A stretch of 64,000 nt of DNA from a virus. How positions within the stretch are numbered: position 1 is the stretch's first letter; each line of letters starts with the position of its first letter. Positions 50,904 to 60,787 of the stretch are shown here, piece by piece. The notes beneath the pieces were generated by a model. The model saw only the letters and a list, made by a program, of their open reading frames with translations, was not told where the DNA came from and did not search any database. The DNA lies in the UHGV virus genome UHGV-0113858; one strand, written 5' to 3'. The translations under genes were made by a program, and so were the position numbers.

Positions 50904-51149
50904 ATGTTTAAACTAAAACTCGTTTACAAAACTGACAACGGAGAGTATATTGAACACGAATCGAATCATAGGGAACTGGATGAAGCCACTGATGAAGCGG
51001 ATGAGATCGCTTTTTCTACAACTGGTTTTGGAATTGAAGCCTGGAAATACGTTGCCTCCTTCGGTGAAGAAGGTGGATTATACTATTTCTACCCCAATGA
51101 TGAAGATCTCACAATCAAATACGCTCTCCGAATCTTCCGAACAATTTAA
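50904..51149 (+). CDS. hypothetical protein (81 aa)
   Basis: ORF. Confidence 0.35.
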   Translation: MFKLKLVYKTDNGEYIEHESNHRELDEATDEADEIAFSTTGFGIEAWKYVASFGEEGGLYYFYPNDEDLTIKYALRIFRTI

Positions 51150-51212
51150 GAATCGAAAACAACGTCGTGCTGAAGCGGCGATCATTCGTTCAAAACGAAA
51201 AGGAGCAAAACG

Positions 51213-51332
51213 ATGAAAGATGAATTTGACGGCTTTATTGGTTACGGCGAAGGGATTCGTCAGTCTGAAGACGTAGATGTTTTCGTTGGTTTCGGAGAGG
51301 GGATTTCTTCTGACGAGCACCCAGACTTCTGA
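51213..51332 (+). CDS. micro-ORF (39 aa)
   Basis: AGGAG RBS. Confidence 0.25.
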   Translation: MKDEFDGFIGYGEGIRQSEDVDVFVGFGEGISSDEHPDF

Positions 51333-51342
51333 GAGGCATTAT

Positions 51343-51465
51343 ATGGAAACTTTAGAAAGAATGCATAGCCTCAGTCTTAGACTGAATGACATCATTGTTG
51401 AAATGAAGGCTAGGGCAAGACAATTGTTCCCAGAGGTATACACTGATGAACGACCTGACCTCTAA
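51343..51465 (+). CDS. micro-ORF (40 aa)
   Basis: GAGAGG RBS. Confidence 0.3.
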   Translation: METLERMHSLSLRLNDIIVEMKARARQLFPEVYTDERPDL

Positions 51466-51640
51466 TCACTGCATCGCATTCTCTGAAAGAGACTGGCCTA
51501 GTGAAAGTCTGCGGGGTATGTATTATCATTCAGCCTGTACTAACTGCGGGAAGGAGTACATAGGTCCTAAAAGAGAAATTTTCTGTTTTATTTGCAGTAA
51601 TAGTAAAAAAGACGTTGACAATGAAACAGGTGATCTATAA
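51446..51640 (+). CDS. small zinc-ribbon protein (64 aa)
   Basis: CTNCG ... CFIC. Confidence 0.35.
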   Translation: MNDLTSNHCIAFSERDWPSESLRGMYYHSACTNCGKEYIGPKREIFCFICSNSKKDVDNETGDL

Positions 51641-51656
51641 TATCTACCACATCAAG

Positions 51657-51729
51657 CGTTCAGTAGCTCAGTTGGTAGAGCAGGTTCTTCATACGGACAA
51701 GGTCAGTGGTTCAATTCCACTCTGAACGA
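51657..51729 (+). tRNA. tRNA with CAT anticodon (Met or lysidine-Ile); G27-A43 mismatch
   Basis: hand-folded cloverleaf: acceptor CGTTCAG/CTGAACG, D GCTC/GAGC, loop TTCATAC, T AGTGG-TTCAATT-CCACT. Confidence 0.55.
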
Positions 51730-51732
51730 TAA

Positions 51733-51810
51733 GGCCCTCAAGCTCATTAGGTATGAGCAATCGACTCATAATCGAGAGGTAGGCAGGTTCGAATCCTCCG
51801 GGGGCCACCA
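51733..51810 (+). tRNA. tRNA with CAT anticodon (second copy), encoded CCA
   Basis: acceptor GGCCCTC/GGGGGCC, anticodon loop CTCATAA, T loop TTCGAAT. Confidence 0.6.
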
Positions 51811-51820
51811 ATTAAAAATG

Positions 51821-51849
51821 TTGACGAGGATATCTGATTGAGTTAGTAT
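51821..51849 (+). promoter_or_regulatory. sigma70-like promoter TTGACG-17-TAGTAT overlapped by inverted repeat GAGGATA/TATCCTC
   Basis: upstream of a basic-protein gene with strong RBS. Confidence 0.5.
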
Positions 51850-51902
51850 CCTCATGAACATAAACGGGACAAATTCCCAAATAAAATGCAAAGGAGAAAA
51901 TT

Positions 51903-52214
51903 ATGACTAAGAAAAATACTGCTAAGAAAGTATCCGCCATCGATGCTATCAAACAGCCTTTCCAGTTTGAGTCGAAGTCTACTCAGACTCATTCTGCGCC
52001 GCACGATGTGCGTCTCGGTGGTGTAGAGAAAACCGTATCAGTTTTCGATCGCCGTAAAGGCGAGTATAAATCCGAAACCCGGATTGAAGGTGGTCAGATT
52101 ATCTCTGCTTCTTACCGCATCCGCACAGGCAAGACCAAGCGTGAACGTGCTGGTAAGGTAAAGGAAACTAAGGTTGTTGAAACCGTAGCCCCGAAGAGTA
52201 AAAAGAAAAAATAA
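51903..52214 (+). CDS. small lysine-rich basic protein (103 aa), possibly nucleic-acid binding
   Basis: AAAGGAGA RBS; K/R-rich termini. Confidence 0.45.
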   Translation: MTKKNTAKKVSAIDAIKQPFQFESKSTQTHSAPHDVRLGGVEKTVSVFDRRKGEYKSETRIEGGQIISASYRIRTGKTKRERAGKVKETKVVETVAPKSKKKK

Positions 52215-52275
52215 TTTCTCCGGCATGGAGAATGACGATTCCGTGAAACGTCTTTAAAAACACGGGTATGTTTTC

Positions 52276-52351
52276 GGGGTATTAACACAGCGGTTAGTGT
52301 AGCGGCCTCTTAAGCCGAAGGTCGAAGGTTCGAATCCTTCATGCCCCACCA
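52276..52351 (+). tRNA. tRNA-Lys (CTT), encoded CCA
   Basis: acceptor GGGGTAT/ATGCCCC, anticodon loop CTCTTAA, T GAAGG-TTCGAAT-CCTTC. Confidence 0.65.
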
Positions 52352-52479
52352 AGTTTGAAATGAGGGAGATACGGGTTCGACTCCCGTTCTTGCTGGCCCG
52401 GCTCGCGTAGTGGCACAGGGCGATAGCTTAAATGGACGAAAGTGCTCTCGTTTCAAATCTAAACCAAAAGGAGAACGAA

Positions 52480-52668
52480 ATGTTCGGATCCCTGTTACGT
52501 ATGGCTGGCGATATTGTTGGTACTGCTGTTGTTGTCACGGCAACTGTTGCAGAACCTTTTGTAGATGTAGCCGCAGAAGTTCTTGACGCCGCTGATGAGA
52601 TTATCGTATCACCTACCGCAGACGTCGTTGGTGAAGTTTGTGACTCCATTAAGGACGTTGTACGATGA
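52480..52668 (+). CDS. hypothetical protein (62 aa)
   Basis: AAAGGAGA RBS before internal ATG of ORF 52432. Confidence 0.35.
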   Translation: MFGSLLRMAGDIVGTAVVVTATVAEPFVDVAAEVLDAADEIIVSPTADVVGEVCDSIKDVVR

Positions 52669-52802
52669 GTGGCGGTGTTATCTTTATCATCATGTCAGTG
52701 ATCTCTTTCCTGCTTGTTCTTTGGTATTATTGGTCATGGTTTGAAAACAACCCTACCACCGAAGAAATAATCAAAGATTCGCTTGACAAACACAATCTGT
52801 AA
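52665..52802 (+). CDS. small membrane peptide (45 aa)
   Basis: ATGA overlap, single TM helix. Confidence 0.3.
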   Translation: MSGGVIFIIMSVISFLLVLWYYWSWFENNPTTEEIIKDSLDKHNL

Positions 52803-52842
52803 GTGTAGTATTTAAACCTAATTTAACGCAAAGGAGAACTTA

Positions 52843-53454
52843 ATGACTGATTCTAAAACTGTAATTTCCGTAACTGAACGTGCCACTAAAGCAGTAACCA
52901 CTGCCGCTACTGGTCTGACTAAAGTAGTCGCTGAACTGCAATCTCTGGCAGAAGGGTCTGAAAAGATCAGTCAGGAAATTCAGTTTAAGCAGCAGGAACT
53001 GGGACAAATTGAAGTTCAGTTCAACGAAAAACTGGCAGAAGAAAAATCCAAGCTGAAGATTAAAGTTCTGGAAAACGAAGATTCCGTTCTGAACTCTATC
53101 CTGAAAGCTCGCGGCCTTGTAGCTGTAGAACCGGGTGTTGTTGAAGACCTTCGTGCAGAGCTGGCGATCTCTCAGCAGAACAATGCTGAAGCTGTAGAAA
53201 GCGCAGTTGCCGACGTTAAACGTAGCGCTGCAATCGAACTGAATGCGGTTAAGGCAAATCTGGAATCTGCTCACAAGGTTGCAATTGCAGAACTTACTGC
53301 GAATAGCAAGGCTAAGGATGACCGTATTGCAATGCTGACAGAACAGCTTGAAGCAGCGCGTGGTGATCTGAAGGCTGAACGCGAAACCCGTCTGGAAATC
53401 GCAAAAGCTGATGCTAACCGCCAGGGCGTTGTTGTCAACACTGGCAAAAACTAA
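52843..53454 (+). CDS. coiled-coil protein (203 aa), probably abundant
   Basis: AAAGGAGA RBS; Ala/Glu/Lys heptad-rich. Confidence 0.45.
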   Translation: MTDSKTVISVTERATKAVTTAATGLTKVVAELQSLAEGSEKISQEIQFKQQELGQIEVQFNEKLAEEKSKLKIKVLENEDSVLNSILKARGLVAVEPGVVEDLRAELAISQQNNAEAVESAVADVKRSAAIELNAVKANLESAHKVAIAELTANSKAKDDRIAMLTEQLEAARGDLKAERETRLEIAKADANRQGVVVNTGKN

Positions 53455-53462
53455 TGCGTAGT

Positions 53463-53490
53463 GCCGACACGGATGTCGGCAAATATTTGA
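53463..53490 (+). terminator. possible terminator/attenuator hairpin GCCGACA-CGGA-TGTCGGC
   Basis: 7-bp stem then AAATATTT. Confidence 0.35.
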
Positions 53491-53528
53491 AGTAACTCAA
53501 ATTTTAAATTTCATGAGAGGAGAATTCT

Positions 53529-54176
53529 ATGTCTACTAAGATGTCTGTAACCCGCGCTCTGGCTACCCTGACCAAGGTTGAGGAAAAGATTCAGAAGCGT
53601 ATCGAAGCGCTGAACACGATTCACATCGCGAAAGGCACTGACGCAAACCGTCAGATCCCAGGCTCTATCCAGAGCGTTGAGGACTTCGAGAAATCTGCTC
53701 AGGCAGACTTCCAGGGTGTTCAGGATCTTCTGGCTGTTCGCGACGACCTGAAGGCGAAAGTTGTTCAGTCAAACGCTGTAACAAAAGTTGAGATCGCTGG
53801 CGAGTCTATGACCGTAGCTCAGGCGATTGAACGTAAACGCACCATCGTTTTCAAAGAGCTTCTGCTTGGAAAACTGAAGTCTCAGTATAATCATGCTCAG
53901 GTTCGCCTGAACCGTGATACACAGGAATTCGAAGCGAAGCTTGAAGCTGCTCGTGCTCCATATGTCCAACGTGATAAAGCGCCAGACGCTGCACAGTTGG
54001 CTGTAGTAGAAGCGCCAGTTCGTAGCATGGGAACTCCTTCCATTGTCGACCCACTGGGTCTGGCAGATCGCATTCGTTCTCTGGAAGCAGAGATTGAAGA
54101 CTTCAAGTCTAACGTTGACTTTGTTCTTTCCGAGTCAAATGCACGGACTGAAGTAGAGATTGAAGGATCAATCTAA
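53529..54176 (+). CDS. coiled-coil protein (215 aa), probably abundant
   Basis: GAGAGGAGA RBS; heptad-rich. Confidence 0.45.
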   Translation: MSTKMSVTRALATLTKVEEKIQKRIEALNTIHIAKGTDANRQIPGSIQSVEDFEKSAQADFQGVQDLLAVRDDLKAKVVQSNAVTKVEIAGESMTVAQAIERKRTIVFKELLLGKLKSQYNHAQVRLNRDTQEFEAKLEAARAPYVQRDKAPDAAQLAVVEAPVRSMGTPSIVDPLGLADRIRSLEAEIEDFKSNVDFVLSESNARTEVEIEGSI

Positions 54177-54454
54177 AATATTTGCAGGAATTCTTGATTA
54201 ACATCTTGTAATTCCTGTGAATAGCTGGTAAAGTTTTTAAATGCTGTTTTTGGTTAGCGAAGTCAGAAACATCTTGCCTCTACCGGGGCCGGAGGTTAAA
54301 CTGCTCCGAACATAATCATATAGGATGATACTTAAACGTATGTTTCCGTCAGTCCGCACAATGATGCGGTTTGATCGAAATTGTCGAATCGCGAATTCGA
54401 AAGACTTCAACATTCAGCATTCAAAGATTATCGTTCAAAGCTTAATGTTTAAAC

Positions 54455-54483
54455 TTGAAACTTCTAAACCATAAAGCTAAAAT
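54455..54483 (+). promoter_or_regulatory. sigma70-like promoter TTGAAA-17-TAAAAT
   Basis: upstream of the tRNA run starting at 54578. Confidence 0.4.
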
Positions 54484-54577
54484 TTCTTTGATTACTTAAA
54501 TCCTGGGTATAGGATCTTAGCTCCCAAGATATGGCTAACTGACTCCTCCAGGCTGTTAATCGGAAACAGCATTTCTT

Positions 54578-54653
54578 GCTCGTATAGCTCAGTTGGTAGA
54601 GCAACTCCCTTGTAAGGAGAAGGTCGTGGGTTCAAGTCCTACTGCGAGCACCA
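54578..54653 (+). tRNA. tRNA-Thr (TGT), encoded CCA
   Basis: acceptor GCTCGTA/TGCGAGC, anticodon loop CTTGTAA, T GTGGG-TTCAAGT-CCTAC. Confidence 0.7.
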
Positions 54654-54659
54654 AACAAT

Positions 54660-54734
54660 TTCTCGATAGCTTACTTTGGTTAGAGCGGTCCCACGATAGG
54701 GACGGTACAGGTTCGATTCCTGTTCGAGAAGCCA
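54660..54734 (+). tRNA. tRNA of uncertain identity with atypical anticodon arm (perfect GTCCC/GGGAC stem around a 6-nt loop ACGATA, or a 7-nt loop with mispairs)
   Basis: good acceptor TTCTCGA/TCGAGAA, D and T arms, encoded CCA. Confidence 0.4.
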
Positions 54735-54736
54735 AT

Positions 54737-54845
54737 GCAGGGTAGGCGGTTTGTCAACCGCGAGGTCCATCCAGACCTGAAAAATATGCCAGAACTAACA
54801 GTACGGCTAAATACATAGGTGGTTAGATTCCACCACCCTGCTCCA
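54737..54845 (+). tRNA. 109-nt tRNA-like RNA: canonical acceptor, D and T arms plus CCA, but ~40 extra nt between anticodon region and T arm
   Basis: acceptor GCAGGGT/ACCCTGC, D GCGG/CCGC, T GGTGG-TTAGATT-CCACC. Confidence 0.35.
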
Positions 54846-55027
54846 AATCTATTCTGCGAGGTTCTGAAACACTTAAAATCTCCTGCATCTAGTGGGGTGT
54901 GATCTCTGTGTCGGCTTTGATATCAAGTTGATGAAAGGGATGGCGTAGGCTCTTCTTCGCAAGTAGAGGCGCTTCGGAGAGGCAACGGCGGTTGTCAGGA
55001 CATCGGGACTTCACAAAATAGATTTCT

Positions 55028-55113
55028 GCGGGATTGGTGGTATTGGCAGTACACACGAGGCTTAAGACTTCGTAGGCCTCTGGGCCTTGAGGGTTCGAAT
55101 CCCTCATCCCGCA
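55028..55113 (+). tRNA. tRNA-Leu (TAA), long variable arm
   Basis: acceptor GCGGGAT/ATCCCGC, loop CTTAAGA, variable GGCC-TCTG-GGCC, T GAGGG-TTCGAAT-CCCTC. Confidence 0.65.
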
Positions 55114-55122
55114 TCAGTTTAA

Positions 55123-55204
55123 GAGGGCGTATCTCAACGGGCTTCTAACCCGTCGTTAATCGAGTAATTGGAGTATGCGGGTTCGAATCCTGCCGCCTTC
55201 GCCA
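55123..55204 (+). tRNA. aberrant tRNA-like gene with Arg (TCT) anticodon arm; no normal D arm and 23 nt before T arm
   Basis: acceptor GAGGGCG/CGCCTTC (G-U), perfect ACGGG-CTTCTAA-CCCGT, T GCGGG-TTCGAAT-CCTGC, CCA. Confidence 0.35.
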
Positions 55205-55320
55205 AATTCACAGGACAGCCGGGACGGGTTTACTCCGAGCTGTGGAAGCGTCGAAAGACTATAGGACACGTCTTGACCCGAATGTGTGGGAGCGAATTGA
55301 AATAATCGGGTCCCCCAAAA

Positions 55321-55394
55321 GCACGGTTGCTGGAGTGGCAACAGCTTCGGCTGCAAACCGAATGTCAGGTGTTCGATTCACCTACCGTGCTCCA
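55321..55394 (+). tRNA. tRNA-Cys (GCA), encoded CCA
   Basis: acceptor GCACGGT/ACCGTGC, TTCGG-CTGCAAA-CCGAA, T AGGTG-TTCGATT-CACCT. Confidence 0.65.
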
Positions 55395-55433
55395 AGTTGT
55401 TGAATATTTTTATAAAAAATGATAAAATGGCCC

Positions 55434-55462
55434 TTGACAGATAAATTTAAATCTGATAACAT
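55434..55462 (+). promoter_or_regulatory. sigma70-like promoter TTGACA-17-TAACAT
   Basis: upstream of ORF 55480. Confidence 0.4.
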
Positions 55463-55479
55463 TAATAAGTGGGGTTATT

Positions 55480-55830
55480 ATGGCAGTAAAACAACAACTT
55501 ACAAAGCGTCGTAGAGGAAAAGGTAGACCCCTTAAAGAAGAGTCTAATGCTATTCAGCTTGAGAAGAATATCCTTGACCTTAAGACCAATATGATTGCTA
55601 TGATTCCTGATGCTCATAAGGTATTGAAAGATCTTATGACAAGTGCCACAACAAAGGACAATATCAGGGAAAATATTGCTCGATTTGTAATTGAGAAAGG
55701 TGAACAAATGCTTTCTGATTACTTCGATGAAGAGAATGAAGAAGCTGAAACAACTAATGTTGATGATAAGAAATCTACTCCTATGAGTAAGCCATTCACA
55801 ACAGATATTGTTCAGTTCAAACAAGGTTAA
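55480..55830 (+). CDS. hypothetical protein (116 aa) with basic N-terminus and acidic C-terminus
   Basis: ORF with GGGG RBS inside the tRNA island. Confidence 0.4.
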   Translation: MAVKQQLTKRRRGKGRPLKEESNAIQLEKNILDLKTNMIAMIPDAHKVLKDLMTSATTKDNIRENIARFVIEKGEQMLSDYFDEENEEAETTNVDDKKSTPMSKPFTTDIVQFKQG

Positions 55831-55832
55831 TT

Positions 55833-55916
55833 GGCTCGTTGGCAGAATGGCTATTGCAGCGGATTGTAAATCCGTGCCCTTCGGGGTTCCTGGTTCGAGT
55901 CCAGGGTGGGCCACCA
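55833..55916 (+). tRNA. tRNA-Tyr (GTA), long variable arm, CCA
   Basis: GCGGA-TTGTAAA-TCCGT, variable GCCC-TTC-GGGG, T CCTGG-TTCGAGT-CCAGG. Confidence 0.6.
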
Positions 55917-55922
55917 ATTAAT

Positions 55923-55998
55923 GGGAGTATAGCTCAGTCAGTAGAGCGCTCGACCGATAATCGAGAGGTCGCAGGAGCAAAGCCTGCTACTCCCACCA
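55923..55998 (+). tRNA. tRNA-Ile (GAT) with non-canonical T loop AGCAAAG and C33
   Basis: acceptor GGGAGTA/TACTCCC, CTCGA-CCGATAA-TCGAG, CCA. Confidence 0.45.
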
Positions 55999-56087
55999 TT
56001 CTCCGTCATAGTACCGCATCCTGACGTTTCGGATTGCATAATCAAGGTACTGGGAACTAGTAAGATACTATGACGGGATCGATTTAA

Positions 56088-56164
56088 AGCGTTATTAGTG
56101 TTAGCGGTCCAGCACTCCGTCCTTCCAAGTCGGAAGCATCGGTTCGAATCCGATATAACGCTCC
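56088..56164 (+). tRNA. tRNA-Gly (TCC), U-U mismatch in anticodon stem, CCA
   Basis: acceptor GCGTTAT/ATAACGC, CCGTC-CTTCCAA-GTCGG, T ATCGG-TTCGAAT-CCGAT. Confidence 0.6.
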
Positions 56165-56247
56165 AAATACGCCCCTAAACTGATGAACGTCTGCGCGGCT
56201 GGAAACACCCACTCAATAGTTCAGATACCCAGGGGCAATAAACAAAT

Positions 56248-56323
56248 GCTCCTATCGGCTAAATGGACAGGCCGTCAGACTTTCAATCTGGAAATCCGAG
56301 TTCGATCCTCGGTGGGAGTACCA
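56248..56323 (+). tRNA. tRNA-Glu (TTC), CCA
   Basis: acceptor GCTCCTA/TGGGAGT (G-U pairs), TCAGA-CTTTCAA-TCTGG, T CCGAG-TTCGATC-CTCGG. Confidence 0.6.
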
Positions 56324-56328
56324 AATAA

Positions 56329-56440
56329 TGGGTATCTAAGGCGAATTGGAAAACGCCCGGTGAAGTGGGTGCGCACCTTGTAGCTCACTGGCATACTTGC
56401 TGAGGTTCGTTCGAATCGGACTGATGCCCACCAAACAATG
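56329..56440 (+). tRNA. 112-nt tRNA-like RNA (second long element): acceptor, D and T arms plus CCA with ~37 extra nt centrally
   Basis: acceptor GGGTATC/GATGCCC, D GGCG/CGCC, T GTTCG-TTCGAAT-CGGAC. Confidence 0.35.
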
Positions 56441-56444
56441 TGCG

Positions 56445-56520
56445 GGTAACTTAATTGCTCCGGGAGCAAGCTGGTCTCCAAAGCCAGTCGTAAGGGGTTC
56501 GACTCCTCACCTTCATGCCA
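56445..56520 (+). tRNA. tRNA-like/pseudo-tRNA with Trp (CCA) anticodon arm and T arm but no acceptor pairing
   Basis: CTGGT-CTCCAAA-GCCAG; preceded by hairpin TTGCTC-CGG-GAGCAA; T-like AGGGG-TTCGACT-CCTCA; ends ...GCCA. Confidence 0.3.
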
Positions 56521-56675
56521 GATAATGGGGGCGACCGGATGTTGAAAATGACTATGATCTACCGCTGCAACGGGAAATCTTGTCGGTCATAAGTAAGCAT
56601 GGCGGCAACAAAATAAGCTGAGGATTGCAGTCCGATACTTAGCCTGGCTCGGTTTCAGGCGCCCTCACCGATTGT

Positions 56676-56751
56676 AGGGAGATGGTGTAATAGGTTAGCA
56701 CACGGGTCTTTGAAATCCGTAGTTCAGGTTCAAGTCCTGATCTCCCTGCCA
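56676..56751 (+). tRNA. tRNA-Gln (TTG), CCA
   Basis: acceptor AGGGAGA/TCTCCCT, CGGGT-CTTTGAA-ATCCG, T TCAGG-TTCAAGT-CCTGA. Confidence 0.7.
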
Positions 56752-56945
56752 AGTTTGAGTGTTTTCTTTTGAGAATACTCATGCGTGGCCTAAGCATTTA
56801 TCAGATGATGTTCAACCTGTGACGTTGAGGAAGTGGGAGCGATACCCACAGGTCACCCCAATTTGCAGATACGTGATTATCTCTATCTTCCCACGTCATG
56901 TGTTCTAGTCGAGATTTTCGTTTGTACGATATCTGCCGCGAATTT

Positions 56946-57036
56946 GGTGGAATGGTCGAGAGGTTTAAGACAGCACCTTGGAAAGGTGTAGGCCCCCAAA
57001 AGGGGTCCGTAGGTTCGAATCCTACTTCCACCGCCA
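56946..57036 (+). tRNA. tRNA-Ser (GGA), long variable arm, CCA
   Basis: acceptor GGTGGAA/TTCCACC, GCACC-TTGGAAA-GGTGT, variable GGCCCC-CAAAA-GGGGTC, T GTAGG-TTCGAAT-CCTAC. Confidence 0.65.
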
Positions 57037-57197
57037 CTTTATGGAGGATTTATGCAGAAACTTTTGCGTTGCAAGAAAGTGTTTGGACGCTGTAGGCTCC
57101 ACGGTAGTAACTGTGGTGTTGCAGAAGAAATTCAATCCGTCCCTATTACTCGTGCGAAAGAAAAAGCAGATCTTCGTAAAGAAATTAAAGAACAATT

Positions 57198-57291
57198 GGA
57201 AGATTAACCCTAATCAGGTAAGGGATCTCTTTGCTAAAGAGACAGTAGCTCCGAAAGGGGTGTGCGAGTTCAAGTCTTGCATCTTCCACCA
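57198..57291 (+). tRNA. tRNA-Ser (GCT), long variable arm, CCA
   Basis: acceptor GGAAGAT/ATCTTCC, TCTCT-TTGCTAA-AGAGA, T GCGAG-TTCAAGT-CTTGC. Confidence 0.65.
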
Positions 57292-57315
57292 AAACAACAA
57301 GGAGGAACAAATCGA

Positions 57316-57762
57316 ATGGCGACGAAAACTGTTTTGAAAACAGCCGAGCATGATGAGTGCCTTGGGAGTTCAACTCTCCCTTCCTCCGCCAAATATTGCA
57401 ATGGGTGCGCAACAACGTATCCAATAAGCGAGTTCTACACGATAGGTAAGTACAAAGACAAAATGAAATATAAACCTTTGTGCAAACGTTGTGAGAATAA
57501 ACGCAGAAAAGAAAGGAATCTTGAGATAATCAAGGAAGTGTTTGGAGAAAATCTCTGCTGCTCATCTTGTGGATATGACAAGTGCTTTGCTGCTCTTGAC
57601 TTCCATCATGTAGATGCAGAATCGAAAGACTTCAATATCGCTAAGATGCTACTTGGGACGCCAGCAAAAGAGAAGCTGGCAGCAGAATTGAAGAAGTGTA
57701 TGATTCTTTGTGCGAATTGTCACAGGGAGCACCACGCAGAAGAAAGATTATCGGGTAGGTAG
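57316..57762 (+). CDS. HNH homing endonuclease inside the tRNA island
   Basis: AAGGAGG RBS before MATKTVLK; DFHHVD...N...CANCHREHH HNH core. Confidence 0.55.
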   Translation: MATKTVLKTAEHDECLGSSTLPSSAKYCNGCATTYPISEFYTIGKYKDKMKYKPLCKRCENKRRKERNLEIIKEVFGENLCCSSCGYDKCFAALDFHHVDAESKDFNIAKMLLGTPAKEKLAAELKKCMILCANCHREHHAEERLSGR

Positions 57763-57828
57763 CCGAGCGGTCAGGCATTCGCCTTTTAAGCGAAGAGACG
57801 ATGGGTTCAAATCCCTCCCTTCCCACCA
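57753..57828 (+). tRNA. tRNA-Lys (TTT)-like, weak T stem, CCA
   Basis: acceptor GGGTAGG/CCTTCCC (one mismatch), D GCC-GAGCGGTCA-GGC, TTCGC-CTTTTAA-GCGAA. Confidence 0.45.
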
Positions 57829-57888
57829 AATTGAATCGGTTAAAATAATTCTTGCAAAAGGTTGTTTTCACTGGTAAAGTATTAAAAT

Positions 57889-57973
57889 GACGAGCTGGTT
57901 CATTGGTAGAACGGCGGACTGTTAATCCGCGAGCATTAGCTCTATGTAGGTTCAATTCCTACGCTCGTCGCCA
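57889..57973 (+). tRNA. tRNA with Asn (GTT) anticodon and an unusual 15-nt variable arm, CCA
   Basis: acceptor GACGAGC/GCTCGTC, GCGGA-CTGTTAA-TCCGC, variable GAGC-ATTA-GCTC-TAT, T GTAGG-TTCAATT-CCTAC. Confidence 0.5.
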
Positions 57974-57980
57974 AATTTAT

Positions 57981-58057
57981 GGGGGCGTGGCAGACTTGGT
58001 AATTGTACCGCACTGTCTATGCGGAATATGAGGGTTCGAATCCCTTCGCTCTCGCCA
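57981..58057 (+). tRNA. tRNA-Asp (GTC), CCA
   Basis: acceptor GGGGGCG/CGCTCTC (G-U), CCGCA-CTGTCTA-TGCGG, T GAGGG-TTCGAAT-CCCTT. Confidence 0.6.
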
Positions 58058-58236
58058 ATTTGATATGTTGATGTAAATTGCCGGAAGGCACTCAAAATGA
58101 GTTCGACGTATCAAACCAAAGTAAACTGTGGAACAATCTTCAGGACATCCATTAACGGACCCTGCAACCCACAGTAATGAATTAGCTAGCCAGCAATACC
58201 AGTTGTAAGATCTGGGACAATTAAAACTTTCACCCT

Positions 58237-58314
58237 CTCTCCTTAGCGCAGTCTGGTCAGCGTGGGTGCTTTGGATGCATCGGGTCCCAGGTTCGAATCC
58301 TGGAGGGGAGACCA
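58237..58314 (+). tRNA. tRNA-Pro (TGG), CCA
   Basis: acceptor CTCTCCT/AGGGGAG, GGTGC-TTTGGAT-GCATC, T CCAGG-TTCGAAT-CCTGG. Confidence 0.65.
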
Positions 58315-58361
58315 ATTTTTAGTGTTAGCAAGCCAGAGATGGCAAACCACAGGAGAAGCTA

Positions 58362-58556
58362 ATGTTAACAGTTAAAATAATGTCACCAAACGGTGGTGAA
58401 GAGATCCATGATGGTATGAGTGTTGGTTTTAATCCAGCCCAGAAAAGTATTTCCATCTCTGGTCTTGATAAGAATATCTTCCTCAAAGAGGATGAGGTAG
58501 CATACGTGATGAATCAGAATGGTAAAACTGTCTCGGTTTATTACGGTAAAAATTAA
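58362..58556 (+). CDS. small hypothetical protein (64 aa)
   Basis: CAGGAGAAG RBS; between tRNA-Pro and tRNA-Arg. Confidence 0.4.
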   Translation: MLTVKIMSPNGGEEIHDGMSVGFNPAQKSISISGLDKNIFLKEDEVAYVMNQNGKTVSVYYGKN

Positions 58557-58557
58557 T

Positions 58558-58630
58558 GTGGGTGTCCTGACGGACAGGCAACGGTCTACGAAGCCGTTTG
58601 ATGTAGGTTCGAGTCCTTCCATCCACACCA
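58558..58630 (+). tRNA. tRNA-Arg (ACG), compact D arm, CCA
   Basis: acceptor GTGGGTG/CATCCAC, ACGGT-CTACGAA-GCCGT, T GTAGG-TTCGAGT-CCTTC. Confidence 0.55.
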
Positions 58631-58877
58631 TATTTGCTCTCCTGTAGAGACCTTAGGGCTTGCAGGATTTACGTGTGGCGTAACAGAGCAAACTAATAAA
58701 GAGGAAGCCCGACTCGGTGTACAACGATACGGCAAAGTCTTCGGCTGTTGATAGGTTCGCAATGCGTCCTCGGACGGTAACGATTATCAGAACGGAGCAA
58801 GGATTGATGAATATATTGCCTATAACTGTTCATCATGGTAACTGTCCGAGGGTGGCATTCTCCCGAAGGATCGATTA

Positions 58878-58962
58878 GGGCAAGTGGCGGAATTGGTAGA
58901 CGCACCAGATTTAGGTTCTGGCGTCCTATGGCGTGAGAGTTCGAGTCTCTCCTTGCCCACCA
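58878..58962 (+). tRNA. tRNA-Leu (TAG), long variable arm, CCA
   Basis: acceptor GGGCAAG/CTTGCCC, CCAGA-TTTAGGT-TCTGG, T GAGAG-TTCGAGT-CTCTC. Confidence 0.65.
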
Positions 58963-58968
58963 CATATT

Positions 58969-59045
58969 GGGTCGGTAGCTCAGTTTGGTAGAGCACTTGA
59001 TTGAAGATCATGGTGTCGGTGGTTCGAATCCACCCCGTCCCGCCA
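58969..59045 (+). tRNA. tRNA-Phe (GAA), U-U mismatch in anticodon stem, CCA
   Basis: acceptor GGGTCGG/CCGTCCC, CTTGA-TTGAAGA-TCATG, T GGTGG-TTCGAAT-CCACC. Confidence 0.65.
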
Positions 59046-59051
59046 AACAAT

Positions 59052-59130
59052 TGCGTGTTAGTGAAACGGATATATAGATCACGTTGGCCTCATAAGCCGA
59101 AAATTGTGGGTTCGACTCCCATCCACGCAT
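59052..59130 (+). tRNA. third CAT-anticodon tRNA (Met/initiator/Ile2 candidate) with long D loop, no encoded CCA
   Basis: acceptor TGCGTGT/CCACGCA (7-66 mismatch), TTGGC-CTCATAA-GCCGA, T GTGGG-TTCGACT-CCCAT. Confidence 0.45.
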
Positions 59131-59262
59131 CTAAAATTCAAAGTGGACACTAAGGAAGGTTTCGGCTGTGGAAACGGTTAGACACCCTCGACGAGTAAAA
59201 TCCCTTCGCCACTTTTCTTATTCTAATAACAATAAATTCTTATATCTCCTCTCCTTTGCCTC

Positions 59263-59290
59263 GCCCCGCTCTTGCGGGGCTTTTCTTTTT
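59263..59290 (+). terminator. rho-independent terminator closing the tRNA island
   Basis: GCCCCGC-TCTT-GCGGGGC then TTTTCTTTTT. Confidence 0.8.
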
Positions 59291-59329
59291 CTGGTACACT
59301 CTAAAAGTAACTTACTAAAGGAGACCAGA

Positions 59330-60787
59330 ATGATCCACACTTACGAGAAGAATGAGCATCTTCGAGAATACCGTTTACTAAAAAGTTTTTTCTCTGAGGA
59401 TATTTACCATATCCTTCGTAGCCTCGATGTTATAATCGCAGGTGGCGCTATCACGGCTCTCTTTACCAACCGGGAAGTTAATGATCTCGACCTGTACTTC
59501 CGTTCATGGGATGACTTGGAGATCTTCATTACTTACATGATGGATATAGACCTACGAAAAGGTGAACATGACCTGTCACCTAAAACGATGGGATACAATG
59601 AAGAGAAACGTGTTTATCGTGATTTCTTCATTTTAGACAATGGGAAAGAGGTATGGGAATCCCGTGCGCCAAGATTCAAGGTTCTTTCTCAGAAAGTGTC
59701 TAAGCAAGAGATCTTGGAGATGGAAGATAAGTTTGCCAGTGACTGCCCTTTTGATCTGTCTGATATCTCTGAATCAACTTGGGATGGTATTGAAAAACTG
59801 CTCGAAAGTAGAAAGAAGAAAGTCTCATATGTTCGTAATATCGGCATGACAGACAAAAGCATTATGTTTTCAGATGGTTCTAATCCGGTGATGCAATGCA
59901 TTGCATTCTCGGTATTTGAGAACGCTGGGCAGATCTTTGATAAGTTTGACTATACCATCAACATGGGTGCCTTCTCATTTGGTGATGAAACATGGGTGTT
60001 TGATAGTCGTTTCCTTAAACATGCTGCACAAAAAGTGTTGGTGCTTAATCCGGCTACAGATTACCCAATTATCAGTATGCTCCGAGCATCCAAGTATGAG
60101 GCCCGTGGGTATACAATCTCCCGTCGGGAAACAATGAAGTTGGGTGTTGCCGTCGCAAGTCTCAAAATGGAAAGCTGGGAAGATGCCAAAAAGCATCTTA
60201 GCGGTATGTACGGGACAAACGTTGAAGAACTCTTCGATACAAAAGAGCCGTTTTCATTTGAGGGATTATTTGATAAACTGGATAATGCAGGTGATATTGC
60301 TATCAGCACGATTGCCACTATCACCGACAAGCGTAAAGGCCAACGGCGTTTTAATCTCGAAGCTAAAGATATCTTCAATGTTTTCCAACGCCTGCGTAAA
60401 AACACCGATCGCCTGTATTTCAAGGAATTCTGGGCTGTATCTAGTGCTGTGCATTTTTACATGATGCAGGCGCATACCGAAAAACACGTATTCGGTCTTA
60501 ACAGCAATAGCATCGACAATCCAGAGATGCTAGATAAGATCAGGATTTATTTTGATCTTGATGCTGCACAAGAGAGGTACAAGCTCTTATGCAAGAATGG
60601 GGTTCAGGGCAGTTGGCACGCAGGAGCGATAGAACCTGGAGCTTGCCTCTTTAAAGTTGACGTGGAAGACCCACTTGCCCTTGAATACGAGGGTGATGGT
60701 AGAGTATCTGTAAACCGAGAAGATAAAGCGCCTCGAAATAAAGTGACCATTGTTGAATTATTAGATTGTGATGGGGATCTCTCATGA
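59330..60787 (+). CDS. nucleotidyltransferase-fold protein (485 aa) with CCA/poly(A)-polymerase-like head motif
   Basis: AAAGGAGA RBS; IIAGGAITALFTNREVNDLDLYF parallels GGAVRDxLLGxxxxDxDxx; ORF-track N-terminal extension crosses the terminator so start set at 59330. Confidence 0.45.
   Translation: MIHTYEKNEHLREYRLLKSFFSEDIYHILRSLDVIIAGGAITALFTNREVNDLDLYFRSWDDLEIFITYMMDIDLRKGEHDLSPKTMGYNEEKRVYRDFFILDNGKEVWESRAPRFKVLSQKVSKQEILEMEDKFASDCPFDLSDISESTWDGIEKLLESRKKKVSYVRNIGMTDKSIMFSDGSNPVMQCIAFSVFENAGQIFDKFDYTINMGAFSFGDETWVFDSRFLKHAAQKVLVLNPATDYPIISMLRASKYEARGYTISRRETMKLGVAVASLKMESWEDAKKHLSGMYGTNVEELFDTKEPFSFEGLFDKLDNAGDIAISTIATITDKRKGQRRFNLEAKDIFNVFQRLRKNTDRLYFKEFWAVSSAVHFYMMQAHTEKHVFGLNSNSIDNPEMLDKIRIYFDLDAAQERYKLLCKNGVQGSWHAGAIEPGACLFKVDVEDPLALEYEGDGRVSVNREDKAPRNKVTIVELLDCDGDLS

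What the first reader, a model, noticed from the sequence alone, without database searches (positions are those of the whole stretch)
51657..59130. tRNA island of ~26 genes containing several structurally aberrant tRNA-like RNAs
Hand folding finds 19-20 conventional tRNAs, many with encoded CCA, plus several oddities. (i) Two ~110-nt elements (54737-54845, 56329-56440) have a perfect acceptor stem, D arm, T arm and CCA but 35-40 extra nt in the middle. (ii) One gene (55123-55204) has a flawless Arg(TCT) anticodon arm and T arm but essentially no D arm. (iii) One tRNA (54660-54734) has its best anticodon stem closing a 6-nt loop. (iv) One Ile(GAT) tRNA has T loop AGCAAAG. (v) One Asn(GTT) tRNA has a 15-nt variable arm. 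(vi) One Trp-anticodon element (56445-56520) has no acceptor pairing. Recurrent U-U or G-A mispairs occur at anticodon-stem positions 27-43/28-42. These could be intron-containing or processed precursors, decoys for host tRNA-targeting nucleases, or tRNA-derived regulatory RNAs, like the T4 species 1/2 stable RNAs.
Basis: seen in the sequence. Interest (0 to 1): 0.6.

Follow-up and report, generated by a model that had tools for sequence, protein, structure and literature searches.

The report
Phage tRNA island with rewired tRNAs
This is the tRNA gene cluster of a Klebsiella-type phage, and several of its "malformed" tRNAs belong to conserved families, including an arginine tRNA with re-plumbed internal wiring found in hundreds of phages and a five-armed tRNA look-alike kept by a whole phage subfamily.

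Summary
The window is a Mydovirus (Vequintavirinae) phage, about 98% identical to Klebsiella phage VIK251 and Proteus phage Mydo. The island (51657-59133, + strand) holds 27 tRNA-type genes, about 20 of them ordinary.

Most oddities are real and most are not decay.
- 55123-55204 lacks a D hairpin. Its anticodon arm (UCU) is nested inside a covarying 3-4 bp helix, followed by a D-loop-like UAAUUGGAG. The family has 283 phage records and 58 IMG/VR loci: 98% of cells pair and 16 of 20 pairs covary. It is the only AGA/AGG decoder in those clusters.
- 54737-54845 (E1) is a five-helix tRNA-like RNA found across Vequintavirinae. All 580 cells pair, and a D-loop/T-loop tertiary pair covaries. Its anticodon arm is shortened and varies by genus.
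- The Trp element does have an acceptor stem once it starts at 56440. It has 8 acceptor pairs, 4 T-stem pairs and a 6-bp D hairpin.
- The Ile T-loop variant and the long-armed Asn are also conserved variants.
- 54660-54734 keeps its fold while its anticodon loop is 6, 7 or 8 nt.
- E2 (56330-56433) has no comparative support.

None matches an Rfam family other than tRNA. They are not homologous to T4 species 1/2 RNAs, and no intron signature was found. Function is inferred, not shown.

The parts
51615..51643 (+). sigma-70-like promoter (TTGACA, 17 nt, TAATAT) just upstream of the first tRNA. Further + strand promoter-like sites lie at 52783, 54455 and 55434.
   Evidence: consensus scan only
51657..51729 (+). 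tRNA(CAU) with a C1-A72 mismatch and no encoded CCA
51733..51810 (+). tRNA(CAU)
52276..52351 (+). tRNA-Lys(CUU)
54578..54653 (+). tRNA-Thr(UGU)
54660..54734 (+). X2: tRNA-shaped RNA with a 6-nt anticodon loop (ACGAUA). Relatives have 7-nt or 8-nt loops around a GAU core and none has U33. The acceptor stem covaries.
54737..54845 (+). E1: five-helix tRNA-like RNA. In order: 7-bp acceptor, A8, 4-bp D stem with loop UUUGUCAA, 5-bp hairpin with 6-nt loop CAUCCA, linker GAAAAAUAU, variable hairpin, linker UAAAUACAUA, T arm, U73, CCA.
55028..55115 (+). tRNA-Leu(UAA)
55123..55204 (+). rewired tRNA-Arg(UCU). Acceptor 55123-29/55194-200; U8 A9 U 55130-32; P2 helix 55133-35 with 55162-64 (plus 55136 opposite 55161); anticodon arm 55137-53 (UCU at 55144-46); bulge CGUUAAUC 55154-61; D-loop-like UAAUUGGAGUAU 55165-76; T arm 55177-93; G73 55201; CCA 55202-04.
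55321..55394 (+). tRNA-Cys(GCA)
55833..55916 (+). tRNA-Tyr(GUA)
55923..55998 (+). tRNA-Ile(GAU) with T loop AGCAAAG, D loop AGUCAGUA (no GG) and C33
56089..56165 (+). tRNA-Gly(UCC)
56248..56323 (+). tRNA-Glu(UUC)
56330..56433 (+). E2: 104-nt tRNA-like RNA with acceptor, D arm, T arm, A73 and CCA. It has no 7-nt anticodon loop and is found only in Mydovirus.
56440..56520 (+). tRNA-Trp(CCA)-like RNA with an 8-bp acceptor, a 4-bp T stem and a 6-bp D hairpin with a CGG triloop
56676..56751 (+). tRNA-Gln(UUG)
56946..57036 (+). tRNA-Ser(GGA)
57198..57291 (+). tRNA-Ser(GCU)
57301..57391 (+). diverged tRNA-Ser(UGA), missed by ARAGORN and below the Rfam tRNA threshold
57316..57762 (+). HNH endonuclease ORF whose first codons overlap tRNA-Ser(UGA)
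57753..57828 (+). tRNA-Lys(UUU)
57889..57973 (+). tRNA-Asn(GUU) with a long variable arm whose 4-bp stem covaries
57981..58057 (+). tRNA-Asp(GUC)
58237..58314 (+). tRNA-Pro(UGG)
58558..58630 (+). tRNA-Arg(ACG) with a short D arm and a U-U mismatch in the T stem
58878..58962 (+). tRNA-Leu(UAG)
58969..59045 (+). tRNA-Phe(GAA)
59052..59133 (+). tRNA(CAU) with U1-A72 and a 14-nt D loop. The 3' end is UCUA here and UCCA in relatives.
59263..59290 (+). intrinsic-terminator-like hairpin plus T run at the end of the island

Best explanation
This is the tRNA gene island of a Mydovirus (Vequintavirinae) phage. It carries 27 tRNA-type genes on one strand, mixed with small ORFs, one HNH endonuclease gene and at least two other structured RNAs. 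It appears to be transcribed from sigma-70-like promoters and to end at an intrinsic terminator.

About 20 genes are ordinary tRNAs that supply phage translation. Most of the aberrant ones are conserved structural variants, not decayed genes.

(1) 55123-55204 is a tRNA-Arg(UCU) whose D domain is rewired. A 3-4 bp helix (P2) takes the place of the D stem but with swapped strand order, so the anticodon arm sits inside it. The D-loop-like stretch UAAUUGGAG (equivalents of G18, G19 and A20) comes after it. U8, C35, a purine at position 73, a normal T loop and CCA are kept. I infer that it still folds into an L shape, is charged by ArgRS and decodes AGA/AGG.

(2) E1 (54737-54845) is a tRNA-shaped RNA with a genuine D-loop/T-loop elbow. 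It has a shortened anticodon arm that varies by genus, and an extra hairpin held between invariant A-rich linkers. I infer that it is cut out and matured like a tRNA but does not decode. It most likely acts as a tRNA mimic that occupies a tRNA-binding host or phage factor.

(3) The Trp, Ile and Asn genes are conserved non-standard decoders.

(4) 54660-54734 and E2 are probably non-decoding tRNA mimics, or in the case of E2 possibly a relic.

Shown here: sequence, structures, covariation and distribution. Inferred: processing, charging, decoding and any anti-defence role.
For: Identity of the phage and the island.

Rewired Arg:
- 283 phage records across Felixounavirus, Asteriusvirus, Vequintavirinae, Bas93 and a Streptomyces phage, plus 58 IMG/VR loci.
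- 39 distinct sequences: 98.2% of 780 cells pair and 16 of 20 pairs change on both sides. P2 is 100% paired, with two of its three pairs covarying. 0 of 500 shuffles reach these values, and slid controls pair at 34-47%.
- A fourth P2 pair is A-C, C-G, A-U or U-G in 34 of 39 sequences. Position 73 is always G or A. CCA is encoded in 25 of 39.
- Family members score 89-104 bits with their own covariance model. Every ordinary tRNA, including the canonical Arg(UCU) of PVP-SE1, scores 36 bits or less.
- In 32 loci carrying it, many with 15-26 tRNAs including Arg(ACG), ARAGORN finds no separate Arg(UCU).
- It sits between Leu(UAA) and Cys, exactly where PVP-SE1 and GAP31 have a canonical Arg(UCU) with the same T arm.
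- AGA plus AGG make up 24% of Arg codons in the window's ORFs.

E1:
- Single copy in the window at 115.9 bits.
- 30 hits and 29 distinct sequences from the five named Vequintavirinae genera sampled (Mydovirus, Seunavirus, Henunavirus, Avunavirus, Vequintavirus) and from metagenomes.
- 580 of 580 cells pair and 11 of 20 pairs change on both sides. This includes the D-loop/T-loop pair (G-C in 20 sequences, U-A in 9).
- It is kept even in rV5-type phages that have only about six tRNAs.

Other variants: Trp; Ile D-loop/T-loop association; Asn variable stem GAGC/GCUC versus GAGU/ACUC.
Against: There are no expression, end-mapping, aminoacylation or decoding data, so every functional step is inferred. 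No 3D model was made, and the L-shape claim for the rewired Arg rests on mapping conserved nucleotides onto the canonical tRNA core by eye.

The Arg family was collected partly with a pattern that fixes the anticodon loop and both junctions, so their invariance is over-stated. The seven BLAST-derived members do show them independently.

About 10 of 50 Arg-family variants are closed by 18-20 bp stems and lack CCA, which is odd for a working tRNA.

E1's partner is unknown, and its strictly invariant linkers are not explained by a simple decoy role.

E2 has no covariation support. Only three sites vary among Mydovirus copies, so it could be a recent relic.
Confidence: 0.6

Rival explanations
1. 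The aberrant elements are decaying tRNA pseudogenes or gene-finder artefacts with no function.
For: ARAGORN and Rfam each miss some of them or score them near threshold (34.9 and 34.8 bits against a cut-off of 29). E2 is nearly invariant and confined to one genus. The loop length of 54660-54734 drifts between 6, 7 and 8 nt.
Against: Compensatory changes with 95-100% pairing across genera are seen for E1, the Arg family and the Trp element. Ile and Asn show coordinated changes. Even 54660-54734 has compensatory changes in its acceptor stem. Pseudogenes would not keep helices across hosts ranging from Escherichia to Streptomyces.
Confidence: 0.08
2. All the aberrant elements, including the Arg element, are non-translating tRNA mimics. 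They would act as decoys or inhibitors for host tRNA-targeting nucleases or toxins, not as decoders.
For: Host defences that cleave tRNAs, and phage tRNAs that escape or neutralise them, are documented (PMC10264068, PMC11555353, PMC11464382, PMC13056530). E1's anticodon-like loop changes by genus and resembles real anticodon loops: UUUUUAA in rV5-type phages, CAUCCA or CUUCCA here, CAUCAAA in Erwinia phages. rV5-type phages carry RNA ligase and polynucleotide kinase genes about 3.3-5.4 kb upstream in the same locus.
Against: The Arg element keeps a perfect 7-nt UCU loop, a 5-bp anticodon stem, an A20 equivalent, a purine at 73 and CCA. It is also the only AGA/AGG decoder in clusters that are otherwise near complete. 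That pattern fits a working tRNA better than a decoy. No target nuclease can be named.
Confidence: 0.2
3. The two ~105-nt elements are intron-containing or otherwise spliced tRNA precursors that mature into ordinary tRNAs.
For: ARAGORN-type annotation of the Hena1 copy as a 108-nt tRNA-sup(tca) implies an intron-style call. Relatives encode RNA ligase and polynucleotide kinase.
Against: No Rfam intron family matches. About 35 nt is far too short for a group I intron (general knowledge). In E1 the extra sequence is in the variable region, not the anticodon loop. It forms its own covarying hairpin and is flanked by the most conserved residues of the molecule. Removing it would still leave a 15-16 nt anticodon arm.
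Confidence: 0.04
4. E1 is a decoding tRNA with an oversized variable arm: Lys(UUU) in rV5-type phages, a UGA suppressor or Sec-like tRNA in Erwinia phages, and Gly-like here.
For: BASEL phage Bas48 annotates it as tRNA-Lys, and Hena1 as tRNA-sup(tca). The rV5 type has loop UUUUUAA and A73, and ARAGORN finds no other Lys tRNA in that locus. There is a weak tRNA-Sec match (23.2 bits).
Against: The anticodon arm is 15-16 nt instead of 17 in every type. The window type has a 6-nt loop. Position 33 is A in several types. The 'anticodon' differs between genera while the rest of the RNA is conserved. The tRNA-Sec score is far below its cut-off of 47.
Confidence: 0.08

Closest known systems
Canonical elongator tRNA-Arg(UCU), as in PVP-SE1, GAP31 and T4
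   Same: Same anticodon loop CUUCUAA, 5-bp anticodon stem, T arm (GCGGGUUCGAAUCCUGC is identical to PVP-SE1), 7-bp acceptor, purine 73 and CCA. Same genomic slot between Leu(UAA) and Cys.
   Different: There is no D hairpin. The D-stem equivalent (P2) is made from strands that lie before and after the anticodon arm, and the GG-containing D-loop equivalent follows the anticodon arm. The canonical Arg(UCU) scores only 21.5 bits with the family model.
Metazoan mitochondrial D-arm-lacking tRNAs, e.g. tRNA-Ser(AGY) (PMC4013460, PMC7609411)
   Same: Working tRNAs without a D hairpin, showing that the cloverleaf is not obligatory.
   Different: Those replace the D arm with a short loop, lose the G18/G19-T-loop contact and need adapted partners. 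The phage RNA keeps a D-stem-like helix, GG, an A20 equivalent and a normal T loop, and must work with ordinary bacterial machinery.
Permuted tRNA genes of Cyanidioschyzon merolae (reviewed in PMC4033280)
   Same: The order of tRNA segments along the gene is changed.
   Different: There the whole gene is circularly permuted and processing restores a normal tRNA. Here the ends are normal and only the internal D/anticodon domain is re-ordered, so the mature RNA itself would be non-canonical.
8/4 and 9/3 'allo-tRNA'-type tRNAs (Mukai et al., PMC5389517)
   Same: The Trp element has an 8-bp acceptor and a 4-bp T stem. Such tRNAs were reported in phages for Ser and His.
   Different: It has a Trp anticodon, no long variable arm, and a 6-bp D hairpin with a 3-nt loop.
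T4 species 1 and 2 stable RNAs (rnaC, rnaD)
   Same: Non-tRNA stable RNAs encoded inside a phage tRNA cluster. rnaC has a T-arm-like 3' domain.
   Different: There is no sequence or model similarity to E1. E1 has a complete acceptor, D, T and elbow framework.
Phage tRNAs that escape tRNA-targeting defences (PMC10264068, PMC11464382, PMC11555353)
   Same: Phage-encoded tRNAs that differ from host tRNAs at sites recognised by nucleases. This offers a plausible selective reason for the variants here.
   Different: The published cases are point changes in anticodon loops or stems. Here whole domains differ (D domain, elbow, variable arm), and no nuclease has been linked to them.

Membership tests
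tRNA (Rfam RF00005) | score at or above the gathering threshold of 29 bits | tested here: met
   22 loci pass, including 55123-55201 (34.9 bits) and 59052-59130 (45 bits). E1, E2, 54660-54734, the Trp element and Ser(UGA) 57301-57391 do not pass.
tRNA (canonical cloverleaf) | D arm formed as a local hairpin between positions 10 and 25 | tested here: not met
   For 55123-55204 only three nt (UAU) lie between the acceptor stem and P2, and only one nt between P2's 5' strand and the anticodon stem. Helix 55133-35 with 55162-64 encloses the anticodon arm.
tRNA (canonical cloverleaf) | 5-bp anticodon stem closing a 7-nt loop with U33 | tested here: not met
   E1 has 5 bp plus a 6-nt loop here, and 4 bp plus 7 nt in other genera. 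54660-54734 has a 6-nt loop. E2 has none. The feature is met by the rewired Arg (CUUCUAA) and by the Trp element.
tRNA-Arg (ArgRS substrate, E. coli identity rules from general knowledge: A20, C35, U/G36, A/G73) | A20, C35, U36 and a purine at 73 are present | tested here: inconclusive
   C35, U36 and purine 73 are present in all 39 sequences, and GGAG supplies an A after GG. Whether that A occupies the position of A20 in three dimensions, and whether ArgRS charges the RNA, cannot be tested with these tools.
tRNA-Sec (Rfam RF01852) | gathering score of 47 bits; 8-bp acceptor, 6-bp D stem, long variable arm, UCA anticodon | tested here: not met
   E1 scores 23.2 bits, the Trp element 27.3 and Ser(UGA) 30.5. 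E1 has a 7-bp acceptor and a 4-bp D stem. The Trp element has anticodon CCA and no long variable arm.
8/4 tRNAs (PMC5389517) | 8-bp acceptor stem plus 4-bp T stem | tested here: met
   In the Trp element the acceptor is 92.5% paired over 8 pairs, including an invariant U8-A pair. The T stem has 4 pairs, all paired.
T4 rnaC/rnaD stable RNAs | sequence or structure homology | tested here: not met
   The E1 model R1 gives no hit in the T4 locus L020, and the folds differ.
YrlA / Y RNA-like tRNA mimics (Rfam RF02553) | match to the family model | tested here: not met
   No match over E1 or E2 at E up to 10. The only hit is a 28.6-bit chance match at 58934-58994, against a cut-off of 69.
tmRNA | tRNA-like domain plus a conserved tag reading frame | tested here: not met
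   ARAGORN finds no tmRNA. The reading frame ending at the conserved UAG of E1 is not conserved in length or phase between types (read from the sequences).
Intron-containing tRNA | a recognisable intron (group I, or bulge-helix-bulge) in the anticodon loop | tested here: not met
   No intron family appears in the Rfam scan. The insert lies in the variable region.

The most novel reading that the evidence does not exclude
The 55123-55204 family is a fully functional, arginylated elongator tRNA whose D/anticodon domain is internally permuted. That would make it a natural tRNA that abandons cloverleaf connectivity yet works with standard bacterial ArgRS, EF-Tu and ribosomes. It would have spread among unrelated phages because the rewiring hides it from a host factor that attacks or depends on the normal D arm. 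E1 would be a second, subfamily-wide invention: a matured, CCA-ended tRNA mimic that neutralises a tRNA-directed host defence.
Probability: 0.35. Interest if true: 0.85.

Novelty: new variant of a known kind. Interest (0 to 1): 0.78.

Why it matters
tRNA connectivity is among the most conserved features in biology, and the known exceptions are almost all in animal mitochondria with co-adapted partners. A rewired tRNA-Arg(UCU) that is conserved in hundreds of phage genomes, from enterobacterial to Streptomyces phages, would show that the standard bacterial translation apparatus tolerates a different wiring of the tRNA core. It would also give a natural scaffold for tRNA engineering.

There is a practical point too. 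These genes are currently annotated inconsistently as tRNA-OTHER, Leu, Val, Lys, 'TERM', or not at all. As a result, phage tRNA repertoires and codon-usage analyses miss or mislabel them.

E1 is a subfamily-wide tRNA-like RNA of unknown function, kept even by phages with only about six tRNAs. It is a concrete, testable candidate in the current search for how phage tRNA clusters interact with tRNA-targeting immunity.

Tried and rejected
- **E1 as a mini-tmRNA.** A frame ending at the conserved UAG exists in the window (AUG CCA ... UAG). Its length and phase are not conserved in other types, and the region covaries as a hairpin, so I rejected this.
- **E1 linkers as a CsrA site or pairing with each other.** AUACAUAGG resembles part of the CsrA SELEX consensus (from memory), but GGA loops are not universal. 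AUGU/ACAU pairing exists only in some types. Dropped.
- **E1 or E2 as relatives of the rewired Arg.** Model R1 and model R2 each find only their own family.
- **E2 relatives.** Distant BLAST found only Mydovirus. An 18-nt D-arm pattern in IMG/VR found one unrelated sequence, at a frequency expected by chance. Short-word BLAST against all fetched loci found nothing.
- **A looser E1 pattern in IMG/VR** gave one new member and several chance hits.
- **T4 rnaC/rnaD homology** was rejected.
- **Rfam at E up to 10** over 51000-60000 gave only tRNA-clan hits and chance matches.
- **Pfam and PHROGs on the island's ORFs** gave no RNA-related function apart from the HNH endonuclease.
- **Literature searches** for phage D-armless, permuted or five-arm tRNA-like RNAs found nothing relevant. 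The library is incomplete, so prior description cannot be excluded.
- **A correction to my own notes.** The rV5 paper's 'Ser(TGA) by ARAGORN' is a different gene, not E1.

Full report
**What the window is.** The region 51600-59200 is 95-99% identical to the tRNA regions of Klebsiella phages VIK251, KpS11 and DP and of Proteus phage Mydo. These belong to genus Mydovirus, subfamily Vequintavirinae. The island is mosaic. Relatives differ by inserted or exchanged modules, and related islands exist in Seunavirus (PVP-SE1, GAP31), Henunavirus (Hena1), Avunavirus (Av-05) and Vequintavirus (rV5-type, Bas48).

**Checking the observation.**
- ARAGORN finds 21 tRNAs.
- Rfam's tRNA model finds 22. It adds 55123-55201 (34.9 bits) and 59052-59130 (45 bits), and it misses 54660-54734.
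- Adding E1 (54737-54845), E2 (56330-56433), the Trp element (56440-56520) and a diverged Ser(UGA) (57301-57391) gives 27 tRNA-type genes.
- 18 of the 20 ARAGORN tRNAs that I examined end in CCA.
The Trp element does have an acceptor stem once it is started at 56440.
- One non-standard anticodon-stem pair occurs in 6 of 20 tRNAs, four of them at 27-43. From general knowledge this is not unusual.
- A relaxed Rfam scan of 51000-60000 gave only tRNA-clan hits and chance matches.

**The "D-armless" Arg(UCU), 55123-55204.**

Distribution:
- In PVP-SE1, GAP31 and Hena1 the same slot, between Leu(UAA) and Cys, holds a normal 75-77 nt Arg(UCU) with an identical or near-identical T arm.
- The window's version is not private to Mydovirus. 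Distant BLAST finds it in 283 phage records. These include Felixounavirus, Asteriusvirus (121Q, CMSTMSU), other Vequintavirinae (UPEC06), the unclassified phages Nernie and Paula, Bas93 and Streptomyces phage Yaboi.
- A pattern scan of IMG/VR gave 58 loci and 50 distinct sequences that align without gaps.
- One-genome-per-species bacterial and archaeal contigs gave only three hits, all in metagenome-assembled genomes. The element therefore looks essentially phage-borne.

Architecture (alignment A9), in order:
- a 7-bp acceptor stem;
- U A U;
- the 5' strand of a helix I call P2 (C-N-N);
- one nucleotide;
- a 5-bp anticodon stem with loop CUUCUAA;
- CGUUAA plus two nucleotides;
- the 3' strand of P2 (N'-N'-G);
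- UAA(N)UGGAGUAU;
- a normal T arm (UUCGARU);
- the acceptor 3' strand, a purine, and usually CCA.

Covariation evidence:
- On 39 distinct sequences, 98.2% of 780 cells form standard pairs and 16 of 20 pairs change on both sides.
- P2 is 100% paired, as CUC/GAG, CGC/GCG, CAC/GUG, CAG/CUG, CAU/AUG and CUU/AAG.
- None of 500 shuffles reaches the observed values, and slid controls pair at only 34-47%.
- The next position inward forms A-C, C-G, A-U or U-G in 34 of 39 sequences, so P2 is effectively 4 bp, the length of a D stem.
- The stems were not constrained by the search pattern. The loop and the two junction motifs were, but the seven BLAST-derived members show those motifs independently.

Topological reading (my inference, not a model):
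- P2's 3' strand followed by UAAUUGGAG reads like the 5' strand of a D stem followed by a D loop (A14, G18, G19, A20).
- P2's 5' strand, which runs straight into the anticodon stem, plays the role of the D stem's 3' strand.
- Segment 10-21 of a normal tRNA has in effect been moved to the far side of the anticodon arm.
- The new joins (9 to 22, and 21 to 46-48) connect nucleotides that are neighbours in the canonical tRNA core, by general knowledge of tRNA structure.

Evidence that it is the working AGA/AGG tRNA:
- It keeps U8, C35, U36, a purine at 73 in 39 of 39 sequences, a canonical T loop, and CCA in 25 of 39.
- Its own covariance model separates it cleanly from other tRNAs. Members score 89-104 bits, while every ordinary tRNA scores 36 or less, including canonical Arg(UCU) at 21.5.
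- In 32 loci that carry it, ARAGORN finds no separate Arg(UCU). Many of those loci encode 15-26 tRNAs including Arg(ACG).
- AGA plus AGG make up 24% of Arg codons in the window's long ORFs. The rV5 paper reports the same bias for that phage against 5% in its host (PMC3606486).
- The Sf14 study lists an "Arg TCT" at the corresponding position without commenting on its structure (PMC12482277).

Caveat: about 10 of the 50 variants are closed by 18-20 bp stems and lack CCA.

**E1, 54737-54845.**

Distribution:
- Distant BLAST finds it in 67 records of the Mydovirus, Seunavirus and Henunavirus type.
- A divergent form is found in 167 records, 129 of them full-length matches, mostly of the rV5 and Av-05 type.
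- IMG/VR and metagenome scans added further divergent members.

Structure:
- A covariance model finds a single copy in the window (115.9 bits) and 30 hits in the fetched loci.
- On 29 distinct sequences all 580 cells pair and 11 of 20 pairs change on both sides.
- One of those pairs is tertiary. The fifth base of the D loop (UUUG[G/U]CAA) pairs with the third base of the T loop (UU[C/A]GAUU), as G-C in 20 sequences and U-A in 9. This is the signature of the 19-56 elbow pair, so E1 very probably has a tRNA-like elbow.
- Position 8 is A and the first D-loop base is U, the reverse of the usual U8-A14.
- After the anticodon-like hairpin come an invariant GAAAA, a hairpin of variable length and sequence that covaries within types (CCUCC/GGAGG, CCCCC/GGGGG, CUCUC/GAGAG, ACGA/UCGU, ACGG/CCGU), and an invariant AUACAUA leading into the T stem.

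Why it probably does not decode:
- The anticodon-like arm is always short, at 15-16 nt.
- It changes by genus: AGGUC-CAUCCA-GACCU here, GGGC-CAUCAAA-GCCC in Erwinia phages, AGGA-UUUUUAA-UCCU in rV5-type and UUUAUAA in Av-05-type phages.
- I therefore consider decoding unlikely.

Annotation and literature:
- rV5-type phages keep E1 although they have only about six tRNAs. RNA ligase and polynucleotide kinase genes lie about 3.3-5.4 kb upstream in the same locus.
- E1 is annotated inconsistently: tRNA-Lys in Bas48, tRNA-OTHER, "???(atcc)", tRNA-sup(tca) in Hena1, or not at all.
- It has no Rfam family and no similarity to T4 rnaC or rnaD.

**Other variants.**
- **Trp (56440-56520).** It has an 8-bp acceptor (92.5% paired, with an invariant U8-A pair), a 4-bp T stem and a 6-bp D hairpin with a YGG triloop. 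Four of the six D-hairpin pairs covary between the Mydovirus, PVP-SE1 and Av-05 types. GAP31, Hena1 and EspYZU08 have a normal Trp instead. tRNAs with 8/4 stems are known in phages for Ser and His (PMC5389517).
- **Ile(GAU).** The four sequence variants with T loop AGCAAAG, AGCGAAG or GGCAGAG all have a D loop lacking GG (UCAG or UUAG). The seven canonical variants have GG plus UUCRAxx. This looks like a coordinated change of the elbow. All have C33.
- **Asn(GUU).** The variable-arm stem changes from GAGC/GCUC to GAGU/ACUC between genera. Mydo itself has a 75-nt version.
- **X2 (54660-54734).** Acceptor pairs 2-71 and 7-66 covary, while the loop is ACGAUA (6 nt), ACGAUUC or AAGAUUC (7 nt), or ACAGAUCC (8 nt). 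It is confined to Mydovirus and Seunavirus.
- **E2.** A tRNA-like fold costs only 1.6 kcal/mol more than the minimum-free-energy fold. Only three sites vary among copies, one of them turning a G-U into an A-U in the acceptor stem. No relatives were found, so its status stays open.

**Setting.**
- Sigma-70-like promoters on the + strand lie at 51615, 52783, 54455 and 55434, and a strong terminator-like hairpin lies at 59263-59280.
- The ORFs in the island are of unknown function, apart from an HNH endonuclease (57316-57762; phrog_2255). Its first codons overlap tRNA-Ser(UGA).
- Two non-tRNA stretches look structured. 54846-55026 has 64 predicted pairs, 9 of them compensatory, conserved between Mydovirus and Erwinia phages. 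54241-54572 is closed by a conserved 18-bp long-range stem.

**Interpretation.** I commit to the following.
- The island is a translation-support module.
- The rewired Arg is a working tRNA-Arg(UCU) with a permuted D domain.
- E1 is a matured but non-decoding tRNA mimic.
- The selective reason is not shown. Published work shows that hosts attack tRNAs, and that phage tRNAs escape through sequence changes (PMC10264068, PMC11464382, PMC11555353, PMC13056530). That makes escape or decoy roles plausible by analogy only.
- I found no paper describing either family. The searchable library is incomplete, so novelty is probable rather than certain.

Noticed in passing
window 54846-55026: The 181-nt spacer after E1 folds into a multi-hairpin structure closed by an 8-bp terminal stem. 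It is conserved at 84-93% in Raoultella phage Ro1 and Erwinia phages (Henunavirus). RNAalifold predicts 64 pairs, 9 with compensatory changes. It has no Rfam match.
   Followed up: partly
window 54241-54572: The non-coding stretch upstream of tRNA-Thr is conserved at 72-93% across Mydovirus and Seunavirus. It is closed by an 18-bp long-range stem (54241-58 with 54552-72). Of 90 predicted pairs, 11 are compensatory. It may be a large structured RNA.
   Followed up: partly
window 57301-57762: An HNH endonuclease ORF (ATG at 57316) starts inside tRNA-Ser(UGA). The Shine-Dalgarno-like AAGGAGGA is the 5' strand of the tRNA acceptor stem. This Ser(UGA) allele is strongly diverged from that of relatives lacking the endonuclease at this site.
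   Followed up: partly
IMG/VR and phage loci L059, L062, L065, L066, L067, L075, L081, L090, L092: About 10 of 50 rewired-Arg variants are closed by an 18-20 bp stem formed by their flanks and have CUA, CAA or similar instead of CCA. They may be a distinct processing class or a non-tRNA use of the same core.
   Followed up: partly
L003:8268-8353, L018:8473-8558, L024:11607-11692, L004:7762-7848: PVP-SE1, EspYZU08, pEa_SNUABM_55 and GAP31 have an 86-87 nt tRNA-Lys(UUU) with a small extra hairpin inserted in the D loop. The window has an ordinary 76-nt version.
   Followed up: no
L002:3912-3989, L004:5808-5885: Mydo and GAP31 carry a 78-nt tRNA-Leu(UAA) with a much shorter variable arm than the 89-nt version in the window.
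   Followed up: no
window 55942-55948 and 58013-58019: The Ile(GAU) anticodon loop is CCGAUAA (C at position 33), and this holds in all relatives. The Asp(GUC) loop is CUGUCUA (U at position 37).
   Followed up: no
window 55999-56088, 56166-56247, 57829-57888, 58058-58236: Other inter-tRNA spacers fold with their ends paired and have z-scores of -2.8 to -4.0 against dinucleotide shuffles. Conservation outside Mydovirus is partial.
   Followed up: no
window 52352-52400: A T-arm-like hairpin (ACGGGUUCGACUCCCGU) follows tRNA-Lys(CUU) without the rest of a tRNA. It gives weak hits to tmRNA 3' ends and is conserved in Henunavirus.
   Followed up: no
L092:9-87: A 79-nt element in an IMG/VR contig has a Ser(UGA) anticodon arm, a long variable arm, a T arm and CCA, but apparently no D arm (36 bits with the rewired-Arg model).
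   Followed up: no
window 51657-51729: The first tRNA(CAU) has a C1-A72 mismatch and no encoded CCA (3' end ACGA). The mismatch is an initiator-like feature.
   Followed up: no
L026-L028 (IMG/VR): The 18-nt D arm of E2 (GGCGAAUUGGAAAACGCC) occurs identically in an unrelated viral contig, inside a region closed by a 9-bp stem. The frequency is compatible with chance.
   Followed up: no
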